DNA of 43,895 bases from a virus (IMGVR_UViG_2548876954_000009); one strand, 5' to 3'. Numbered from the stretch's first letter, positions 5,566-23,962 are shown. The notes: generated from the letters alone by a model not told the origin. Made by a program: numbers and translations.

Positions 5566-8500
5566 TCAACGGATACTGATGCCGGAAGCCGCTTTTTTGG
5601 TCACAATCACCGTACAGTCGGTGATATTGCCTGCCCCCTGATTCCCTTTCTGGAAAATCTTAAACTCCAGAGTGACGCTTCCCCTGCCACCCGGCATATC
5701 AATAACCGCACTGTAACTACCGGGAATGGCCCCTTTAGTTTCTCTGGATGCGATTAATACGCCGTTTTTGCGAACTTCAAATCCATAACCCGTGTACCTT
5801 GTACCTCCCGGATTATTACCACTTCCCGGATCGGTATACGCTATACCGTTAAAGATAATGGGCGGGATAATAATCTGACGGTCAAAGTTATGATCATCGC
5901 TGATGGTGACTGTAACCGTCCCGTCTGGCGTTTCCGTGTTACCCCACGTACCGACTTTTTTCGGGAAGGCTTTTGATACAGCTTTAACGAAATCCCCTCT
6001 GACCTGGGTCGCCTCCAGCATGCCCTTAATCGTACAGTTCTCACTTATCGTGACATTGTTGAGCGTTCCTGAGTTCGCATTCACGTTACCGCTGATATCA
6101 GCGTTTTTCGCCGTCAGCCGCCCGTCCGGTGTCAGGGAAAATGCCGGAGGATTGCCGCCGCTGGTGATGGTCGGGGCCGTCAGACGCTTCAGGAACACGT
6201 CGTTCATGAATATCTGGTTGCCCTGCGCCACAAACATTGGTCGTGTGTTGCCATTAGACGGATCAATAAACGCAATACGGTTAGCGGCGACCAGAAACTG
6301 GCTCAGTTTGCCTTCCGGCGTGTCCTCCATGCTGAGGCCAAGTCCCGCGACATAATGTTTGCCGTCTTTGGTCTGCTCAATTTTGACGCCCCACATGGCA
6401 TTCCATTTATCACTGGCGTCCTTCCACTCTTTCGAAAACTCCTCCAGTCTGCTGGCGTTATCCTCCGTCAGCTCGACTTTTTCCAGCAGCTCCTTGCCGA
6501 GATGGGATTCGGTTATCTGGCCTTTGAAAAAATCCAGGTAACCTTCCGCATCATCGCTCGCCTGACCGACAGCCTCCACGAATACCGATTTGCCAACGGT
6601 GTTCACACTGCGGATATAAAAGTAGTAATCAGAACCCGGCTTAATATTGATACTGGCGGCTATCCAGTACATCCCCGTGCCAAGATAGCGCGCGCTGGTT
6701 TCAACCTGCCGGATATCGGCAATCCGCTTTTCCGAAAACCAGAACTCAAACTGTACCGTCGGGTCATAAACTGCAAGATGCGGCGTGGCGGTTATCTGAA
6801 AATAGCCCGGCGTCAGCTCAATCTGTGACGGCGCTGCCGGTGCGGCAATCCTGAACGATACCGACGCCGGGTCGCCCTGCTGTCCCCACGCATTTACCGC
6901 CCGGACTGTCAGCCTGTAGTTCCCTGGCGCCAGTTGCGTGAAGCGGTATGTGGTTTCCGTCGTCCTGGCCGTGCTGACCAGCCGCTCACTGCCGTCGTCT
7001 GCTGCCACAGTCAGGCGAAGCATAAAGCTCACCCCCTTCACCACCTTCGGCGTGTCCCAGCGCGCCAGTACCTGATATTCCCCGCTGTCTGCCGAAACTT
7101 CGGCGGTCAGGTGCTGCACCGCTGGCGGCGTGACACCGTTCACCGTGCCGCTCTGGTCGCCGTCAAAGTGCGCCCCGTTATCCACGATGGCTTCTTTTTC
7201 CGGTACATGCTGCACGGCAGTGATGGCATACGTGCCGTCATCGTTCTCACGGATACTCACACAGCGGAACAGGCGCTGGCGCAGCGTCGGCAACTTCAGC
7301 CCCCACACGCTGTATCCGGCAACGCCGTCAGGGATACGGTTCACTTTCACCTGCACGCCGTCGGTGACAGACTGGACCTCCACGCTGACCGGACTCCCCG
7401 TCCCGTCAACCAGGCTTATCAGCGTGGTACCGGAGGATGGCAGCGTGATTTCACGGTCGAGCGTCAGCGTCCGGGTCTGGCTGTTCACCGCCAGTACGCG
7501 CCCGCCGGTGCTGATACCCGCATAGTCATCATCGCAGATTTCAATGACGTCTCCCGGTACATGGCGAAGCCCTTCTGCACCCACGCTGAAATCCACGGTC
7601 TGCGTTTCCAGCAGTTCTGTTTTAATCAGCCACAGCCCGGCGCGGTGTGCCTGCCCCCGGCTGGTACAGCCAAAGGCATCCATCTTCGTGACGTTACGAC
7701 CGTAACGGGCAATGGCCTGCGTGTCCTCCACAAGCTCTGTTGCCGTCTCCCAGCCGTTGTCCGGGTCAATCCAGTTCACCTCAACGGCATTATGGCGGTC
7801 CTTCAGGGCGCTGAAGCTGTAGCGGAACGGCGCGCCATCATCCGGCATCACCACATTACTGCGGTTATAGGTCCACACCTTATCCGATGGCCGGTCCTGC
7901 ACGAACGTCAGCGTCTGCCCGTTCCATACCGGCATACAGCGCATCGCCGAGCAGAAATCACTGAGCACATCCCACGCCTTGCGCTGTGTGGTCAGGTACG
8001 CATTACAGGTGATGCGCGGCTCCGTGCCGCCAGAGCCATCCGGTACCGACTGGTCGCAGTACCGACCGATGGCATACAACGCCCATTTATCAACATCCGC
8101 CGCACCAAGACGTTTCCCCATGCCGTAGCGCGGGTGGGTCAGCATGTCCCACAGACACCAGGCCATGTTGTCGCTGTACGCTGGCCTGAACGTTCCGTCC
8201 CAGATACCGCTGTATTGCCGTGTTTGCGGGTTATAGTTCGACGGCACCTGCAGAATGCGCCCGCGCAGATGATAATTACGGCTCACCTGCTGGCTGCCGA
8301 ACTGCTCAGAGTCCACCTGCACGCCGACCAGTGCCGTGTTCGGGTAGCACTGTTTCACATCGATAATTTCGGTGTATGACGACCAGAGCGTTTTGTTCTG
8401 CAGCTGGTCTGTGGTGCTGTCCGGCGTCATCCTGCGCAGCCGGATATTGAACGGGCGCGGCGGCAGGTTATCCACCACCACCGAGGCCAGATACTGCGAG

Positions 8501-9711: not shown

Positions 9712-10346
9712 TTTTCGGTATACCTCTCTCGTTTGCTCAGTTGTTCAGGAATATGGTGCAGCAGCTCGCCGTCACCACAGTAAATGGCGGCATGATTCGG
9801 CACCGATGAACCAAAACAGCACAGCAGCACATCGCCCGGCTGCGCCGCTGACAACGGCACCTGATACAGCCCTGTGGCCTCCAGATTATCCAGATAGAGA
9901 TTCTGACCGTTACGCCACCAGTCATCCTCACGATGAAAATCCGGCATCTCAATCCCCGCCAGATGGTAAGCATCCCGGAACAGCGTGTAACAATCTGTCA
10001 CCCCGTGCTCAAAGTGCCGCCCGGTGAGATGCGGCACACAGCGGAATTTATGAATCTCACCCCGGCAGACCAGCCACCACGGCAAATCACTCTGCACCTG
10101 CATCCGCCGGTCGGCCTCACTCAGCCAGGGCAGACCACCGGGGTGGCTGTGGACCAGCGCCACAATCTCACCCTGCATCTCTGCCTGCAGCCAGTCTTCC
10201 GGCGACATACGGAAATACGCCTCCGGCTCACCGGAGATATTCACGCAGGGGAAATATCTTTCCCCCTCCGGCGTGCTTACCACGAAGCCGCACGACTCCG
10301 CTGGCGCACATCGCCGGGCGTGCGCCAGAATCGCTGATTCTGTCAT
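9609..10346 (-). CDS. K: Tail tip assembly protein K (MPN/JAMM plus NlpC/P60-like); start taken at ATG 10346, alternative internal start at 10208
   Basis: JAMM motif HSHPGGLPWLSEAD; lambda K-like C-terminus; in-frame extension MTESAILAHARRCAPAESCGF upstream of the classical start. Confidence 0.85.
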   Translation of the reverse strand: MTESAILAHARRCAPAESCGFVVSTPEGERYFPCVNISGEPEAYFRMSPEDWLQAEMQGEIVALVHSHPGGLPWLSEADRRMQVQSDLPWWLVCRGEIHKFRCVPHLTGRHFEHGVTDCYTLFRDAYHLAGIEMPDFHREDDWWRNGQNLYLDNLEATGLYQVPLSAAQPGDVLLCCFGSSVPNHAAIYCGDGELLHHIPEQLSKRERYTEKWQRRTHSLWRHRAWHASAFTGIYNDLAAASTFV

Positions 10347-11049: not shown

Positions 11050-11378
11050 CAGTTCACCACCTGTTCAAACTCTGCGCTGAACTCAACACGCAGCATACTG
11101 ACCCGCGACGACCATTTTGCGCAGGTCACCTTTATCTGTCGCCACTCATAAGGCGGCGTCCACAGAAAGGCTTTCCAGCCCCCGTGCTCAGCCAGAAACG
11201 ACTCCAGCGCCGTGGCCTCCCGACGGGGAACAGAAAACGTCACGCTGTACGTTTTCAGGTTGGAATTCAGCCCGGCAGGCGCTCGCTGGGAATAGCCATC
11301 ACCAAAGCGCACCTTTCTTACGGAAGGGGCCGAAGCCACATCCATGCCGGGTTTCACTTTCCAGCGGAAGGTTTTCAT
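11049..11378 (-). CDS. M: Tail tip assembly protein M
   Basis: 109 aa, MKTFRWKVKPGMDV... lambda M-like. Confidence 0.95.
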   Translation of the reverse strand: MKTFRWKVKPGMDVASAPSVRKVRFGDGYSQRAPAGLNSNLKTYSVTFSVPRREATALESFLAEHGGWKAFLWTPPYEWRQIKVTCAKWSSRVSMLRVEFSAEFEQVVN

Positions 11379-14300
11379 CGTCCACCTCCGGAGAACAGGC
11401 CACCATCACGCATCTGTGTCTGAATTTCATCACGGGCACCCTTGCGGGCCATGTCATACACCGCCTTCAGAGCAGCCGGACCTATCTGCCCGTTCGTGCC
11501 GTCGTTGTTAATCACCACATGGTTATTCTGCTCAAACATCGCCATACCTGAACCACCAATATTTGCCACAACCCCCAGCTTACCGTCAGCACCACGGCGC
11601 AGTGGCAGAATGGCTTCAGGTCCCGCTTCCCCCATCACACCCGCGCCTTTTGCAAAAGCAAAAAACGTCGGTCGGTTAACCACCGTGCCGCTGTAGCGAC
11701 TCAAATCAGCCGACTGATAAACGCCACCATCAGCATTGGGCGTCACACTGGCAGCGGCTGCACTCCCCCAGCCAAACGCCGAACCAATCCCCTTCACCGC
11801 CTGCATCATGGCCATCTGCGCCATAATTTTTGCCAGATCGGAAAGGAGTGAGGCGGTAAAAGATTTGAAGTTCAGTTTTCCGGTGGTACAGAAGGTCGCC
11901 AGTGCATTACCAGCACTGTTAAATGCCGCTGTAAGCATCTGCTCAGCAGTGCCTGCCGCATTATCCGCATCTGCCGTGAAATTCTGAAACGCCCGCATGG
12001 CACCGTTTTTCCAGTTACCCTGAGCAATTTCAAGCTGTTGCCAGTAACGGCGATTCTCATTCAGTTGTCGGTTCAGGCTCTCCGTCAGCGCCTGCTCGGC
12101 CTTTCTGTAGTCATCCGTGTTATATGTCCCTTTCTGCTCACTATCCCGCCTCAACTGCTCCAGCTGTTGCTGGTATTTCTGGCGAAGACTCAGTTGTACC
12201 TGATATCGCTGCCGCTGCTGATCACCCATACCCACCGTGGCGATATCCAGGTCATGTTGCTGACGCTGAGCGCGCTCTTCTTCAGCCAGTTGACTGGTCA
12301 GCTGAATTGTTTTTTTCTTCAGATCGTTGAGTGCCGTCTGTTTCTGAAGCTCCTGCTGTTTTACATCCAGCAGCGTCAGTGCCTGAATCAGTTCATCTTT
12401 ACGGGCCAGCACACTCTTTTCATCTGCCGTCAGTTTTTTCCCGTCCAGATCGCTGATGCGCTGCTGCAGAGCCAGAAGCTGTTTATGCGCTTCTGTCATC
12501 CTGTCAGTGGCAATGCCTGCTGACTGTCTGGCAGCAGCAATCTGTCCTTCCACCTGTGCCTGTTGCTGGCTGTACTGCAGCAATAACCGGGTGGCCTCAT
12601 CATTACGGGTTTCGCGTGTTTTTTTCTTACCGGATGCCAGGGCTTTCTCGTAACGTTCATTTTCACGTTGTATCGCCGCATCCCTGACAGCCTGATCGGC
12701 GTACTGCATGGCATTAATACGCGCAATTTCACACTGATGTCGTGCAGCTTCCGTTTCATTCATCCGGTTCAGTGCAGCATTTTCAGCATTACGGCGTTTC
12801 TGTTGCTCCTGATAATTCCGCTCTGCCTGCTCTTTTGCATCCTGCAAATCCTTCTGGCGTTTTTTCTCCTGAAGATCGTTAAGACGCTGCTGATCGTATT
12901 CAACCTGAGAAGATGATGCCGTCCAGGGGAGTCTTTTCGCCCGCGACACTTTCTCCTGCAAAGTGGCAATCTGCGCATCCAGCGAGTCTTCACGACCAAT
13001 ATTCATGGCCGCATCCCAGAACTGCTTCCACCAGTCAGACAAGGTTTGCAGCGTACTACCCAGCGCATTGAGGTTATTATCAATATCCGCAGTACGCCGA
13101 CCGGTTTCCTCTGCCAGTGCAGACATGGCTATCCGTGCCGCATCACTGGACCGCCCCTGTTCCCCAAGGACGCGTATCTGCTCAAGCTGAGTGGCAGTAA
13201 GAAAATGCAGCTCATTGTCCAGAGCCTTCGCGGCATTTACAGGATCATCCTTCAGCCGCTTAAACTGATTTATGGTATCGCTGACCGACTGGCCAACCGA
13301 TCGCTCCATCTGTGCGGCAGCTTTCGCCACCATACCGATATCGTTTCCACGAAATGCACCACTCCCCACCACCTGAGCCAGCGCACCGGCTGCAGCATGT
13401 TGCGTAATACCATTCCCGGAAATAGCACGACTGAGCGTCCACAGCTGCCCGGCAGTGACTCCGGCATAATGCCCCGTCAGCGACAACTGGCGGTTAAATT
13501 CTTCCCCCTCCTTCTGACCATCATACCAGGCTTTACCCAGACCATAGACGGCCGCGGCAATACCGCCAATAACCGCTCCTGGCATCATGCCTTTCGGTGA
13601 CATCAGTGTGTCTATCCATCCGGCACGGTTAGCCAGCGTTATCCCGGATCCCCTCAGCGCACCTAAATTGCCACGAGCCAGTTCACCTATCAGAACGCCT
13701 ATCTCCTGGCGGGCCGCTGCACTTTTCAGACCCAGCGAATGCGTGGCTTTTCCTGCCTGCTCCATTTTGCGGATATACACTTCTGCAGCACTGCTTACCC
13801 CCAGCTGGGCAGCCTTAGCACGAAGCAACTCAGAAGAGGAAAGATTCTGGCGGGTTGCCTGCTCTTTAAGCTGACGGATAAACGCCACTTTCTGTCGGGT
13901 AGCCTCTGCCTCAGCCTGCGTAAGAACACGGGTTTTCGCCGTAACCTCAGAAATCAGCGCCAGATAATCCTGCTGACCAATCCCGCCACTGTTTCTGGCC
14001 TGTCGGATCTGCTGCTGAATACGCTGTAATTCCTGCAGCCCCGCACTGGCCTGTTTCACACTGTCAATCTGACGATAAAACGCGGCAGCCGCTTTATCCT
14101 GAGCCTCCGCCAGAGCCATGGCCTGCGCCTGTTCCTCGCGCATTTTCTGGCTCAGTGCCTCCATACGCTGGCGGGTTTGCTCCACCTCGCGGGCCATGCG
14201 TTCATGAGCCTGTGCGCTCTTCTCCACCGTCTGCGCATGGACGGATGCGGCTGTTGCAGCCGAAGAAGCCGCCTGCATTGTCTGCCGGGCGGCCTGAGTC

Positions 14301-14449
14301 TGACGCTCCATAAAACGCTGCATACGGGCAGAAGACCGTTCTGCATCGCTGGCTGCACCATTCAGAAGGTTTTTGATACGGGGAATTTCATTTTTAAACT
14401 CTGCCGCATCAATCCCCAAATCAATGACCAGGTTGGCTATCTGGTCCAT
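11375..14449 (-). CDS. H: Tail tape measure protein H
   Basis: About 1024 aa from ATG at 14449 (ORF track start 14458 is GTG); coiled-coil-rich; C-terminus ...FEQNNHVVINNDGTNGQIGPAALKAVYDMARKGARDEIQTQMRDGGLFSGGGR matches lambda H. Confidence 0.9.
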   Translation of the reverse strand: MDQIANLVIDLGIDAAEFKNEIPRIKNLLNGAASDAERSSARMQRFMERQTQAARQTMQAASSAATAASVHAQTVEKSAQAHERMAREVEQTRQRMEALSQKMREEQAQAMALAEAQDKAAAAFYRQIDSVKQASAGLQELQRIQQQIRQARNSGGIGQQDYLALISEVTAKTRVLTQAEAEATRQKVAFIRQLKEQATRQNLSSSELLRAKAAQLGVSSAAEVYIRKMEQAGKATHSLGLKSAAARQEIGVLIGELARGNLGALRGSGITLANRAGWIDTLMSPKGMMPGAVIGGIAAAVYGLGKAWYDGQKEGEEFNRQLSLTGHYAGVTAGQLWTLSRAISGNGITQHAAAGALAQVVGSGAFRGNDIGMVAKAAAQMERSVGQSVSDTINQFKRLKDDPVNAAKALDNELHFLTATQLEQIRVLGEQGRSSDAARIAMSALAEETGRRTADIDNNLNALGSTLQTLSDWWKQFWDAAMNIGREDSLDAQIATLQEKVSRAKRLPWTASSSQVEYDQQRLNDLQEKKRQKDLQDAKEQAERNYQEQQKRRNAENAALNRMNETEAARHQCEIARINAMQYADQAVRDAAIQRENERYEKALASGKKKTRETRNDEATRLLLQYSQQQAQVEGQIAAARQSAGIATDRMTEAHKQLLALQQRISDLDGKKLTADEKSVLARKDELIQALTLLDVKQQELQKQTALNDLKKKTIQLTSQLAEEERAQRQQHDLDIATVGMGDQQRQRYQVQLSLRQKYQQQLEQLRRDSEQKGTYNTDDYRKAEQALTESLNRQLNENRRYWQQLEIAQGNWKNGAMRAFQNFTADADNAAGTAEQMLTAAFNSAGNALATFCTTGKLNFKSFTASLLSDLAKIMAQMAMMQAVKGIGSAFGWGSAAAASVTPNADGGVYQSADLSRYSGTVVNRPTFFAFAKGAGVMGEAGPEAILPLRRGADGKLGVVANIGGSGMAMFEQNNHVVINNDGTNGQIGPAALKAVYDMARKGARDEIQTQMRDGGLFSGGGR

Positions 14450-15148
14450 AACGCACACCTCCGGAAATACCTTCCCCTAGATGCATCAGTTCTTCGTCCG
14501 TTCGCTCCGGTATCCCGTTCTCTTCCGGTAAAAGGCTGAAATCAGCCACCGCAGCATCACTGCTACCGGACACCATTCTCACGATCAATGCCTTCAGCGA
14601 GGCAAACTGCGCATCCATCCACACATCACTGAAGCTCTGCATCCGGAAATAATCGCCCCACTCACCAAGCTCAGTGGCCGACATTTCCGACAGCATCCGC
14701 CGCCAGTCTGCCCGCCGGAACTCCCGGGCAAGCCGCATGACAAACTGCATTTCCCGCGTCAGGACTTTTCCGGCGTCAGCACCTCATGCTCCAGATCCCC
14801 GGCATTCTCAATGGCTCCCATACCGCTCAGCGACAGAACCATCTCCGCCCCCGCTCCCAGGGCATCATACGACCATGTTGTAATAACGGATGCGCAAAGC
14901 GTCTCAACATCCTGAGACTGTTCCGCATTCCACAGTGAGCGGGAAACCAGCCAGGCATTGATATCCATCCCCATCCGCAGAAAAGCAATCTGTCGTTCAG
15001 CCTCCGGCAGTTCTCCCTCTTCGGCATCAAACTTTGCCGTTCGCTGCTGAACAAACGCCAGATATTCAATTCTCTGCAGCCCGGACAGCTCACTGAGCAC
15101 CACGGACTGCTTTTCATAATTAAACGTGCCCTGTTTCAGAAACATCAT
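14421..15148 (-). CDS. T: Tail assembly chaperone G-T fusion via programmed -1 ribosomal frameshift (T portion 14421..14783)
   Basis: T-frame ORF is in -1 frame relative to G and open across the last 22 nt of G; GGAAAAG near G stop resembles lambda GGGAAAG slip site. Confidence 0.6.
14759..15148 (-). CDS. G: Tail assembly chaperone G
   Basis: MMFLKQGTF... lambda G-like; ATG at 15148 with GGTGGAG RBS. Confidence 0.9.
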   Translation of the reverse strand: MMFLKQGTFNYEKQSVVLSELSGLQRIEYLAFVQQRTAKFDAEEGELPEAERQIAFLRMGMDINAWLVSRSLWNAEQSQDVETLCASVITTWSYDALGAGAEMVLSLSGMGAIENAGDLEHEVLTPEKS

Positions 15149-15160
15149 GTTCTCCACCTG

Positions 15161-15185
15161 CAAAAAAGCCCCGGATAACCGGGGC
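15161..15185 (-). terminator. Rho-independent terminator between V and G
   Basis: Stem GCCCCGG/CCGGGGC, loop ATAA, T-tract on minus strand. Confidence 0.5.
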
Positions 15186-15205: not shown

Positions 15206-15949
15206 TTAACCTGCGGCGCTGACAGCCACCGCAGCCACTGCCACAAAATCGCCGTCAGAAGTCATGCCCACAATGCTGACACTGCCCTGCTTCACGCCTT
15301 TCACCGTGGCCACAAGCCCGTTCAGGGTCACCGTGGCAGTCTGTGGATCTGTCGAATGCACACTGATCGCTTTGTCACTGGCTCCGTCAGGTTTTACTGT
15401 AAAGGTCAGCGTGGTGGTTGCTCCCACTTTTACACTGGCAGATGCCGGTGCCACCGTCAGCCCGGTAACGCTCACGGTTTCAGTGCCTTCCTCTGCCAGA
15501 TACGGACGCCCCACACCGCTGATTTTCACAGTGCGGGTCATCACGTCTTTTGAGGCAATGGTTTTACCCAGTGAGCTCAGCCAGCCGCGGAAAACATCAA
15601 CAGTACCGTTGGGATATTTGATACGAAACGCGCAGACTTCACCGGAGTCGAACAACTGAACCAGTTTTTTCTGCCCGCTGTCACCCGGACGCCAGGCCAG
15701 CGTCGCCGAAGTATCACCAACGGATTTCTGCCCCTGGGTTGTCGTTTTCCAGTCTGCATCCTCATCATCGAGATAAGTGTCATCTTCTGCATCAGCGGTC
15801 ATTTCGCCAGGTTGCAGATCCTTCACCATCGCAAGACGCAGCCAGTCAGTGTCCGACAAAGGGTTCGCAAACGCATCGCCGTTGCCGGTATACATCCAGA
15901 ACGTCGTCCCCGCACCTTTCGTCTTTGCCAGTGGATTTGGTGTGGTCAT
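15206..15949 (-). CDS. V: Major tail tube protein V with C-terminal Ig-like domain
   Basis: MTTPNPLAKTKGAGTTFW... lambda V-like; ATG 15949 preceded by GGAGGTGG RBS. Confidence 0.95.
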   Translation of the reverse strand: MTTPNPLAKTKGAGTTFWMYTGNGDAFANPLSDTDWLRLAMVKDLQPGEMTADAEDDTYLDDEDADWKTTTQGQKSVGDTSATLAWRPGDSGQKKLVQLFDSGEVCAFRIKYPNGTVDVFRGWLSSLGKTIASKDVMTRTVKISGVGRPYLAEEGTETVSVTGLTVAPASASVKVGATTTLTFTVKPDGASDKAISVHSTDPQTATVTLNGLVATVKGVKQGSVSIVGMTSDGDFVAVAAVAVSAAG

Positions 15950-23422: not shown

Positions 23423-23962
23423 CTAGAGACTCTCTCCTTCCTCATCAGGAATTAATTCAGCAGCACAAGCCTCGTAGGATTTTTCCTGAAGAGTGTATCG
23501 CAGGTCATCAATGGCCTGCTGTACAACGCCGACGGCCTGAGGAGTCAGGGCGCAATCGCGTTCAAGAACATCCGGAATTGTCTCCAGAACCTGGACGACA
23601 GCCTTTCTCATGGACGAATAGACGATGACTACTTCATCAACTGGGATGAGTTTTCGCTGCTCCTTTTCCAGCTTGATCCTTTCATTTTCAGACTGGTACC
23701 AGTCCTTTCTCTCTTTCGGCTCCATACGGGATGGATCATGAACAGAGTCTGCTGCCTCATGCTTCACACTAAACAGGGCGGGCCCGACATGCTGCAGGGC
23801 GTAAACGGGGTTCCCCCTGACAGTCGCAGCCACAGGAGTGTTGGCCGCGAGGAGCCGTTTTTTTACTGTGTCCCGGTGAAGCCCAAAGGCCTCGGCGATT
23901 TTAAAAACACTCCAGTAATAAGCATCACCGATCCCGCTCACATTTGACATAAGCAACTCCAT
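23423..23962 (-). CDS. nu1: Terminase small subunit (Nu1-like)
   Basis: N-terminal HTH (DAYYWSVFKIAEAFGLHRDTVKKRL), 179 aa, immediately upstream of terminase large subunit. Confidence 0.8.
   Translation of the reverse strand: MELLMSNVSGIGDAYYWSVFKIAEAFGLHRDTVKKRLLAANTPVAATVRGNPVYALQHVGPALFSVKHEAADSVHDPSRMEPKERKDWYQSENERIKLEKEQRKLIPVDEVVIVYSSMRKAVVQVLETIPDVLERDCALTPQAVGVVQQAIDDLRYTLQEKSYEACAAELIPDEEGESL

What the first reader, a model, noticed from the sequence alone, without database searches (positions are those of the whole stretch)
14421..15148. G/GT frameshift window carries GGAAAAG rather than the canonical GGGAAAG
The T-frame ORF is -1 relative to G and is only open across the final 22 nt of G, so any frameshift must occur there. 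That window contains CCGGAAAAGTCC. Relative to the G frame (CCG GAA AAG) this does not fit X-XXY-YYZ perfectly, so either slippage tolerates a P-site mismatch here, the efficiency differs from lambda, or the shift is at another position.
Basis: seen in the sequence. Interest (0 to 1): 0.45.

Follow-up and report, generated by a model that had tools for sequence, protein, structure and literature searches.

The report
Known GGAAAAG tail-chaperone frameshift site
This lambda-like E. coli phage very probably makes its G-T tail-assembly fusion protein by a ribosome slipping back one base on GGAAAAG, which is the commonest slip sequence in this gene family and is already annotated as such in phage N15, so the finding is real but ordinary.

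Summary
On the minus strand, the G gene (15148..14759) ends CCG GAA AAG TCC TGA. The T frame is -1 relative to G and opens only at 14783, 22 nt before the G stop. The only slip-prone sequence in that stretch is G_GAA_AAG (14771..14765).

The window is an mEp460/Ayreon/cdtI-type lambdoid phage. The same module is in 1848 of 5426 complete E. coli genomes.

The heptamer sits exactly where lambda has G_GGA_AAG, and the difference is a single base. Across 27 lineage representatives:
- the AAA core is invariant;
- heptamer base 1 always equals base 2;
- base 3 is free (A 17, C 7, G 3).

Exact GGAAAAG is the majority form (15/27). The N15 record labels this same heptamer, at the homologous site, "slippery sequence for -1 translational frameshift".

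Most likely mechanism: tRNA-Lys slips from AAG to AAA while tRNA-Glu re-pairs from GAA to GGA with a central G·U. In the dnaX context, A_GAA_AAG still gives 20% against 57% for G_GGA_AAG.

I found no significant downstream structure and no Rfam match. An upstream GAGG 10 nt from the heptamer is only weakly supported as a stimulator.

No fusion protein was measured here. Verdict: already known, low interest. The practical point is that most records do not annotate the slippage.

The parts
15206..15949 (-). Major tail tube gene (lambda V homologue with a C-terminal Ig-like domain), immediately upstream of G
   Evidence: Pfam PF16461 Phage_TTP_12 (4.9e-67) plus PF02368 Big_2. Annotated as major tail protein in mEp460 and Ayreon.
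15168..15185 (-). Terminator-like GC hairpin followed by a T-run, between V and G
   Evidence: Pattern scan. The mEp460, Ayreon and N15 records annotate a terminator or stem-loop at the equivalent place. Its function was not tested.
14759..15148 (-). G gene (tail assembly chaperone G), 129 aa, 0 frame, stop TGA at 14761-14759
   Evidence: Translation. PF06894 Phage_TAC_2 1.8e-39. NCBIfam equivalog TIGR01674 phage_lambda_G 9.7e-57.
14780..14785 (-). Shine-Dalgarno-like GAGGTG; 10 nt separate the GAGG core from the heptamer. It overlaps the T-frame stop TGA at 14786-14784. Possible upstream stimulator, not established.
   Evidence: Searches show a peak of anti-SD complementarity at spacers of 9-12 nt across 19 lineage representatives. 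The synonymous-codon shuffle gives only a weak excess (family P about 0.024, window alone 0.17). The element is absent in N15 and phi80.
14762..14783 (-). The 22-nt stretch in which both the G frame and the T frame are open, so any shift must occur here
14765..14771 (-). Slip site G_GAA_AAG: P-site codon GAA (Glu), A-site codon AAG (Lys); in the -1 frame these read GGA AAA
   Evidence: Read directly from the sequence. Conserved in relatives. Identical heptamer annotated as the slippery sequence in N15. Positionally homologous to lambda GGGAAAG.
14421..14765 (-). T-frame part of the GT fusion. Base 14765 is read twice. 114 codons (VLTREMQFVMRLAREF...) then TGA at 14423-14421. Predicted GT = 128 + 114 = 242 aa.
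   Evidence: Conceptual fusion. PF06223 Phage_tail_T. TIGR01715 phage_lam_T 4e-40. One continuous alignment with lambda GT across the junction, E 4e-42.
14748..14750 (-). ATG used by database annotations as the start of a free-standing 109-aa T protein; probably not a real start
   Evidence: Annotated this way in mEp460 and RefSeq. The ATG is not conserved: Gifsy-1 and Fels-1 have CTG, and Klebsiella and Kluyvera have other codons. T-frame coding conservation runs upstream of it to the heptamer.
11375..14449 (-). Tape measure gene (lambda H homologue), overlapping the end of T
   Evidence: PF06791, PF09718 and PF24622. mEp460 annotation.

Best explanation
This is the lambda-type programmed -1 ribosomal frameshift that produces the tail assembly chaperone fusion GT from the overlapping G and T genes. 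It uses the near-cognate heptamer G_GAA_AAG.

Most ribosomes read ...CCG GAA AAG TCC TGA and release the 129-aa G protein. A minority slip back one nucleotide, with tRNA-Glu on GAA in the P site and tRNA-Lys on AAG in the A site.

- tRNA-Lys (anticodon mnm5s2UUU) moves from AAG to the better-matched AAA. This is the driving step in E. coli.
- tRNA-Glu (anticodon mnm5s2UUC) re-pairs with GGA. It keeps the first-position G-C pair and the third-position A pair, and has G·U in the middle instead of A-U.
- Translation then continues GTC CTG ACG..., giving a 242-aa protein with the junction ...LTPEK|VLTREMQF...

Shown here:
- the frame geometry;
- the family identity of V, G, T and H;
- positional homology with the lambda site;
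- conservation of the heptamer, and the rule base 1 = base 2 plus an AAA core.

Inferred, not shown:
- that the fusion is actually made;
- its efficiency. My estimate is within about 3-fold of lambda's roughly 4%;
- whether the slip is tandem, A-site only, or a P-site slip after translocation. All three give the same protein.
For: 1. Gene order is V-G-T-H with curated family matches: PF16461, PF06894/TIGR01674, PF06223/TIGR01715 and the TMP domains.
2. T is in the -1 frame and open for only 22 nt before the G stop.
3. The conceptual fusion aligns with lambda GT in one HSP through the junction, PEK|V against AGK|V, E 4e-42. The T-frame peptides align without gaps from the heptamer onward in lambda, N15, phi80, Fels-1 and the window.
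4. In 27 lineage representatives, the AAA core is present in 27/27 and base 1 = base 2 in 27/27, although the preceding codon encodes six different amino acids (P, L, M, A, S, D). Base 3 is A 17, C 7, G 3. Exact GGAAAAG is found in 15/27.
5. Five relatives have a 13-nt overlap that contains little besides the heptamer.
6. The N15 record marks GGAAAAG at the homologous site as 'slippery sequence for -1 translational frameshift'. The Gifsy-1 record calls T 'part of ... gpG by translational frameshifting'.
7. Published dnaX-context efficiencies: A_AAA_AAG 81%, G_GGA_AAG 57%, A_GAA_AAG 20%, A_ACA_AAG 22% (Tsuchihashi & Brown data tabulated in the supplement of PMC6787027).
8. A_AAG is by far the most slip-prone tetramer in E. 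coli (PMC4066793). It is used naturally with unmatched P-site codons, for example IS1222 G_CGA_AAG (PMC5009743).
9. PRFect lists a 'twofour' motif class and notes GAA-to-GGA re-pairing through G:U (PMC10885494).
Against: - No protein or reporter measurement exists in this analysis. I found no paper that measures G_GAA_AAG itself, and it is not in the dnaX mutant table.
- Without stimulators, A_AAG tetramers alone are barely above background in the reporter of PMC4066793 (about 0.15%). I found no convincing stimulator: the downstream fold z-scores are -0.96 and +0.32, and the upstream SD-like element is statistically weak.
- Relatives with G_GCA_AAA have almost no P-site re-pairing. So the contribution of the G·U re-pairing of tRNA-Glu is uncertain.
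- Most databases annotate T as an independent ORF.
Confidence: 0.85

Rival explanations
1. Single-tRNA slippage. Only tRNA-Lys slips on A_AAG, either in the A site or in the P site after translocation. tRNA-Glu contributes nothing specific, so the site is effectively a tetramer or hexamer motif rather than a relaxed heptamer. The protein product is the same as in the main explanation.
For: A_AAG is a functional minimal motif in E. coli. Relatives with CTG_GCA_AAA_TAG keep the Lys codon but have essentially no P-site re-pairing. In the dnaX context, A_GAA_AAG (20%) and A_ACA_AAG (22%) behave alike.
Against: Heptamer base 1 equals base 2 in 27/27 lineages although the codon that carries it encodes six different amino acids. 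This points to selection for first-position re-pairing of the P-site tRNA. G_GGA_AAG (57%) outperforms P-site-mismatched variants (20-22%) in the dnaX context.
Confidence: 0.25
2. T is an independent gene translated from its own ATG at 14750, as annotated in mEp460, cdtI and RefSeq, and no frameshift product is needed.
For: An ATG exists and the database records call a 109-aa ORF there.
Against: - The ATG is not conserved in relatives.
- T-frame amino-acid conservation (GK-x-L-x-R-E-x-x-F) begins at the heptamer, upstream of the ATG.
- The only purine-rich stretch before the ATG (GGGAA) directly abuts it, leaving essentially no spacer.
- The T frame is closed just upstream, so the overlap with the end of G is only 13-82 nt in every lineage examined.
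- In lambda, T sequences are made only as GT (established knowledge, Levin et al. 1993, cited).
Confidence: 0.05
3. The frame change is made at the RNA level by transcriptional slippage on the A run, or it reflects a sequencing error or pseudogene.
For: The site contains a short homopolymer (AAAA).
Against: Four A residues are far below the run lengths stated for programmed transcriptional realignment: more than 7 A or more than 8 T (PMC3711429). The identical sequence is present in hundreds of independent assemblies and in about 1850 complete E. coli genomes. That excludes a sequencing error.
Confidence: 0.02

Closest known systems
Phage lambda G/GT programmed -1 frameshift (G_GGA_AAG; Levin, Hendrix & Casjens 1993)
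   Same: Same V-G-T-H gene order, same G and T protein families (NCBIfam equivalogs), same -1 direction and the same codon position. The T-frame peptides align without gaps from the heptamer onward. The A-site Lys AAG-to-AAA slip is the same.
   Different: Heptamer base 3 is A, not G. The P-site codon is therefore GAA (tRNA-Glu, mnm5s2U34) instead of GGA (tRNA-Gly), and re-pairing has a central G·U rather than a third-position change. The G stop follows after one codon here, against five in lambda. The T domain is shorter (GT 242 aa against 279 aa).
Phage N15 gene 14/15 frameshift, also HK225, phi80, mEp213, Fels-1 and Gifsy-1
   Same: Identical heptamer GGAAAAG in the same phase at the homologous site. 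The N15 record explicitly annotates it as the slippery sequence. The Gifsy-1 record notes the frameshift.
   Different: The preceding codon is GCG in the N15 group and CCG here. In the N15 group the G frame continues for five more codons. The upstream GAGG element is absent there. T identity to the window is only about 43-46% for the N15 group.
E. coli dnaX frameshift signal (SD-like element, A_AAA_AAG, stem-loop)
   Same: Same A-site event: the single tRNA-Lys slips from AAG to AAA. The window has a GAGG 10 nt upstream of the heptamer, the same spacing as I recall for dnaX.
   Different: No significant downstream hairpin. The SD-like element is not statistically secure. The expected efficiency is a few percent, not about 50-80%. 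The outcome is an extended product, not a truncated one.
A_AAG tetramer and NNA_AAG hexamer sites (IS1222 G_CGA_AAG; B. subtilis cdd A_CGA_AAG)
   Same: These sites rely on Lys AAG-to-AAA slippage with an imperfectly re-pairing P-site tRNA.
   Different: Here the P-site tRNA can still form G-C, G·U and A-U in the -1 frame, so the site lies between a tetramer and a canonical heptamer. No pseudoknot or stem-loop stimulator was found.

Membership tests
Lambda-type tail assembly chaperone G/GT frameshift module | Two ORFs lying between the major tail tube gene and the tape measure gene | tested here: met
   V homologue 15949..15206, G 15148..14759, T frame 14783..14421, tape measure gene 14449..11375.
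Lambda-type tail assembly chaperone G/GT frameshift module | Upstream ORF belongs to the gpG family and downstream ORF to the gpT family | tested here: met
   PF06894 and TIGR01674 for G; PF06223 and TIGR01715 for T. All scores are far above the curated cut-offs.
Lambda-type tail assembly chaperone G/GT frameshift module | Downstream ORF is in the -1 frame and overlaps the 3' end of the upstream ORF, with a slip-prone sequence in the overlap | tested here: met
   22-nt overlap containing G_GAA_AAG. The same geometry is seen in 27 lineages.
Lambda-type tail assembly chaperone G/GT frameshift module | Fusion protein GT actually produced at a low fixed ratio to G (about 1:30 in lambda) and required for tail assembly | not testable with these tools
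   Needs immunoblot or mass spectrometry, a reporter and phage genetics. Only the conceptual fusion was checked.
Canonical X_XXY_YYZ slippery heptamer | Bases 1-3 identical and bases 4-6 identical, in 0-frame phase | tested here: not met
   Bases 1-3 are G, G, A (14771..14769). Bases 4-6 are AAA. It fits XX_YYYY_Z, the 'twofour' class of PRFect.
Z_ZZN minimal (tetramer) -1 slip motif | [quoted passage not shown] | tested here: met
   A_AAG at 14768..14765 in G phase. It ranks as the most efficient tetramer in E. coli.
dnaX/IS911-type stimulated -1 frameshift signal | Shine-Dalgarno-like element about 10-14 nt 5' of the slip site | tested here: inconclusive
   GAGGTG at 14785..14780. The family-wide anti-SD profile peaks at spacers of 9-12 nt. 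The signal is mostly explained by a conserved Glu codon. The synonymous shuffle gives P about 0.024 across non-independent lineages and 0.17 for the window alone. The element is absent in the N15 and phi80 lineages.
dnaX/IS911-type stimulated -1 frameshift signal | Stable stem-loop or pseudoknot starting about 5-9 nt 3' of the slip site | tested here: not met
   Folds of the 65-nt and 100-nt downstream stretches are no more stable than shuffles (z +0.32 and -0.96). No Rfam family matches.

The most novel reading that the evidence does not exclude
In this GGAAAAG class, both slipping tRNAs (tRNA-Glu and tRNA-Lys) carry mnm5s2U34. In lambda only the A-site tRNA-Lys does. The G:GT ratio, and hence tail assembly, could therefore be more sensitive to the host 2-thiouridine/IscS sulfur network than lambda's is.

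In the mEp460/Klebsiella sub-lineage, the GAGG 10 nt upstream may also act as a dnaX-like stimulator that compensates for the weaker P-site re-pairing.

Neither idea is excluded by my data and neither is demonstrated. The module is present in about a third of complete E. coli genomes.
Probability: 0.15. Interest if true: 0.35.

Novelty: already known. Interest (0 to 1): 0.12.

Why it matters
Scientifically it matters little. The site is one more instance of the conserved tail-chaperone frameshift, using a heptamer that the N15 record already marks.

Two practical points remain.

1. RefSeq/PGAP and most phage records (mEp460, cdtI, Ayreon) annotate T as a free-standing ORF starting at an unconserved ATG, with no ribosomal-slippage join. 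The module is in 1848 of 5426 complete E. coli genomes, including O157:H7, so the 242-aa GT protein is missing from many proteomes.
2. The family comparison gives a compact empirical rule for these sites: base 1 = base 2, an AAA core, base 7 a purine, and base 3 free. Tools that search only for X_XXY_YYZ will miss most of them.

Tried and rejected
- **Downstream stimulatory structure.** MFE folds of the 65-nt and 100-nt stretches after the heptamer are no better than dinucleotide shuffles, and there was no Rfam hit. A hairpin about 33 nt downstream appears in single folds of N15, phi80 and lambda. It is too far away, is not shared by the window, and was not tested further.
- **Upstream SD-like stimulator.** This looked striking in the positional profile. 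It largely dissolves once the amino-acid sequence is held fixed, and it is missing in N15-type relatives that have the same heptamer. I left it as inconclusive.
- **Another slip site in the 22 nt.** None has repeated bases, and relatives with 13-nt windows exclude it.
- **+1 shift at TCC_TGA.** The +1 frame is not the T frame.
- **Transcriptional slippage or sequencing error.** Rejected on the run length of four A residues and on the identical sequence in very many assemblies.
- **Searches that added little.**
  - The first viral-contig scan and the lambda-T scan returned only near-identical copies and no new diversity.
  - Licznar et al. 2003 (NNA_AAG hexamers) and Xu et al. 2004 could not be read.
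  - Text searches for GGAAAAG returned only unrelated papers in the listed hits.
- **Not done.** I made no structure prediction, because the family assignments were already unambiguous.

Full report
**What is in the sequence**

The genes lie on the minus strand. The order is:
- a lambda-V-type tail tube gene with a C-terminal Ig-like domain (15949..15206; PF16461 and Big_2);
- a terminator-like hairpin (15185..15168);
- G (15148..14759; PF06894, TIGR01674 equivalog);
- a T-family ORF (PF06223, TIGR01715);
- the tape measure gene (14449..11375).

G ends ACG CCG GAA AAG TCC TGA, with the stop at 14761-14759. The T frame begins one base 5' of the G frame, so it is -1. It is closed by TGA at 14786-14784 and is therefore open for exactly 22 nt (14783..14762) before the G stop. 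In G phase the heptamer is G_GAA_AAG (14771..14765).

**Where the window comes from**

The 1-kb region is 97-99.6% identical to Escherichia phages Ayreon, mEp460, cdtI and relatives, and about 68-70% identical to the Salmonella prophages Gifsy-1, Gifsy-2 and Fels-1. The same G-T module is found in 1848 of 5426 complete E. coli genomes, including O157:H7.

The mEp460 and Ayreon phage records and the one RefSeq E. coli record I opened annotate G and T as separate genes, with no slippage join. The Gifsy-1 record describes T as part of gpG by translational frameshifting.

**Comparison with relatives**

I collected T homologues, aligned them, and fetched DNA loci from genome and viral collections. 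I also fetched thirteen annotated phages, including lambda, N15, phi80, HK225, mEp213, Fels-1 and Stx phages. For each locus I located the T-frame opening, the G stop and the overlap.

The forms found at the end of G, in G phase, were:
- NNG_GAA_AAG followed by one to five sense codons and then a stop: E. coli mEp460 type, Gifsy-1, Fels-1, Citrobacter, Klebsiella, N15, HK225, phi80, mEp213, Kp4865-4;
- TTG or CTG_GAA_AAG followed directly by a stop: Proteus, Providencia heimbachae;
- CTG_GCA_AAA_TAG: Kluyvera, Ewingella and others;
- CTG_GAA_AAA_TAG;
- ATG_GGA_AAA_TAG;
- GCG_GGA_AAG: lambda and an Stx2a type;
- TCA_AAA_AAG: CP-1639 and an Stx1 type;
- GAC_CCA_AAA: a Vibrio phage.

I anchored 27 lineage representatives on the heptamer. 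The results were:
- bases 4-6 are AAA in 27/27;
- base 1 equals base 2 in 27/27 (GG 25, AA 1, CC 1), although the codon carrying base 1 encodes Pro, Leu, Met, Ala, Ser or Asp;
- base 3 is A in 17, C in 7 and G in 3;
- base 7 is G in 18 and A in 9.

Exact GGAAAAG is the majority form (15/27). Lambda's GGGAAAG is a minority form.

In five relatives the overlap is only 13 nt and still contains the heptamer, which pins the site. T-frame coding conservation (Gly-Lys-x-x-x-Arg/Gly-Glu-x-x-Phe...) starts right at the heptamer. That is upstream of the ATG that annotators use for T, and that ATG is not conserved.

**Homology with the lambda site**

- Lambda reads GCG GGA AAG and its T frame continues GK VFDGELSFALKLARE.
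- The window reads CCG GAA AAG and its T frame continues GK VLTREMQFVMRLARE.

The two align without gaps. The conceptual fusion is 242 aa, made of 128 residues from G and 114 from the T frame. It aligns with lambda GT in a single HSP across the junction (E 4e-42) and carries both Pfam domains. The two heptamers differ by one base, at position 3.

**Prior recognition**

The N15 record carries a misc_feature 'slippery sequence for -1 translational frameshift' at record positions 10027..10033. Its sequence is GGAAAAG, in the same phase and at the homologous position. The non-canonical heptamer was therefore already recognised by the annotators of N15.

The PRFect paper lists a 'twofour' motif class among annotated phage frameshifts. 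It also notes that tRNA-Glu can re-pair from GAA to GGA if G:U pairs are allowed (PMC10885494).

**Mechanism**

[quoted passage not shown] A_AAG is used naturally with unmatched P-site codons, for example IS1222 G_CGA_AAG. Its efficiency depends on the two 5' bases (PMC5009743).

On G_GAA_AAG, tRNA-Lys moves from AAG to AAA. tRNA-Glu (anticodon written 3'-CUS-5', where S is mnm5s2U) moves from GAA to GGA. It keeps G-C at position 1 and A·S at position 3, and changes A-U to G·U at position 2.

The Tsuchihashi & Brown dnaX mutant series, as tabulated in the supplement of PMC6787027, gives:

| Heptamer | Frameshifting |
|---|---|
| A_AAA_AAG | 81% |
| G_GGA_AAG | 57% |
| A_GAA_AAG | 20% |
| A_ACA_AAG | 22% |
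| G_AAA_AAG | 20% |

G_GAA_AAG itself is not in that table. Relative to A_GAA_AAG it restores the first-position pair. I therefore infer an efficiency between roughly one third of G_GGA_AAG and equal to it. That would be about 1-4% if lambda's roughly 4% (PMC3296357) is the reference. This is an inference, not a measurement.

The invariance of base 1 = base 2 argues that first-position re-pairing of the P-site tRNA is selected. The G_GCA_AAA relatives show that the other two P-site positions are dispensable. Tandem slippage, A-site-only slippage and P-site slippage after translocation would all give the same junction, ...LTPEK|VLTREMQF... Protein sequencing therefore cannot separate them.

**Stimulators**

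The 65-nt and 100-nt stretches downstream fold no better than shuffles (z +0.32 and -0.96), and no Rfam family matches.

Upstream, GAGGTG (14785..14780) puts a GAGG 10 nt from the heptamer. That is the spacing I recall for dnaX (from memory, not checked here). Across 19 lineage representatives of the closer sub-family, anti-SD complementarity peaks at spacers of 9-12 nt (mean duplex energy about -3.5 kcal/mol, against about 0 elsewhere).

Most of this signal comes from a conserved acidic codon five codons upstream of the P-site codon, which is GA at positions -14/-13 in 25 and 22 of 27 lineages. With the protein sequence held fixed and synonymous codons resampled, the excess is small. The observed mean is -4.59 against -3.43, P about 0.024 with non-independent lineages, and for the window alone 17% of resamplings do as well. 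The N15, phi80 and mEp213 lineages have the same heptamer without any SD-like element. I treat the SD-like element as unproven.

**Rivals**

- Independent initiation of T at ATG 14750 is unlikely. The ATG is not conserved, coding conservation runs upstream of it, and the only purine-rich stretch (GGGAA) directly abuts the ATG, leaving essentially no spacer.
- Transcriptional slippage on four A residues and sequencing error are excluded by the run length and by the identical sequence in very many assemblies.
- A +1 shift at TCC_TGA leads into the wrong frame.

**Verdict**

The idea that the shift lies elsewhere is rejected, and the efficiency question remains open.

The feature is not new. It is the commonest slip sequence of the lambda-type G/T family, it is annotated in N15, and the phage carrying it is a published and very widespread type.

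The remaining points of modest interest are:
- the annotation gap;
- the empirical family rule (base 1 = base 2, AAA core, base 3 free);
- the untested idea that a site using two mnm5s2U34 tRNAs could respond more strongly to host tRNA thiolation than lambda's site does (PMC3296357).

Noticed in passing
window 14780-14785 (minus strand); relatives L001-L174: An SD-like GAGG lies 9-12 nt upstream of the heptamer in most lineages of the closer T sub-family (E. coli, Klebsiella, L137, L009, L144, L157), matching the spacing I recall for dnaX. It is mostly explained by a conserved Glu codon followed by a G-initial codon. The synonymous-shuffle excess is weak, and the element is absent in the N15, phi80 and mEp213 lineages.
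   Followed up: partly
L008, L009, L138, L139, L144, L157 (junction about 1500 or 2500 in each locus): A whole branch of relatives (Kluyvera, Ewingella and others) ends G with CTG_GCA_AAA_TAG. The Lys codon can slip perfectly, but tRNA-Ala has almost no -1 re-pairing, and the 0-frame stop directly abuts the heptamer. This suggests a slip in which the stop codon or termination pause plays a part.
   Followed up: partly
window 15168-15185 (minus strand): A 7-bp all-GC hairpin followed by TTTTTT lies between the tail tube gene and G. The equivalent place is annotated as a terminator or stem-loop in the mEp460, Ayreon, N15 and HK225 records. It may lower transcription of G, T and the tape measure gene relative to V.
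   Followed up: no
window, 16 sites (for example 6727-6733 and 23663-23669, minus strand): GGAAAAG occurs 16 times in the window against 7.1 expected (0 of 100 shuffles reach 16). In-phase G_GAA_AAG copies lie inside a 1138-aa open frame (6733..6727) and a 187-aa open frame (23669..23663). There a -1 slip would only truncate the product, so the heptamer does not appear to be avoided elsewhere in the phage.
   Followed up: partly
27-lineage alignment, positions -14/-13 relative to heptamer base 1 (window 14785-14784): A GA(R) acidic codon five codons upstream of the P-site codon is conserved in nearly all lineages, including lambda and N15 (G 25/27, A 22/27), although the surrounding residues vary. 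I did not examine whether this reflects G protein function or a nascent-peptide or mRNA effect on slippage.
   Followed up: no
L260 (N15), L261 (phi80), L095 (lambda), about 33-70 nt after the heptamer: A strong predicted hairpin (GGCGCG...CGCGCC, within the LAREFGRPDWRAM coding stretch) appears in single-sequence folds of the 80 nt downstream (-36 to -41 kcal/mol). It was not tested against shuffles or for covariation. It is too distant to be a classical stimulator and is not shared by the window.
   Followed up: no
L005 (JAEWTL010000010.1) and L006 (JAGTSE010000010.1): Metagenome-assembled genomes labelled 'Bacillota bacterium' and a soil 'Proteobacteria bacterium' carry this E. coli prophage module with a T protein 98-100% identical to the window's. 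Mis-binning or contamination is the likely cause.
   Followed up: no
window 14421-14750; RefSeq example L176 (NZ_CP062746.1): PGAP/RefSeq and most phage records annotate T as a free-standing 109-aa (or shorter) protein and do not join G and T by ribosomal slippage. The predicted 242-aa GT protein is therefore absent from the annotation of a module found in about a third of complete E. coli genomes.
   Followed up: partly
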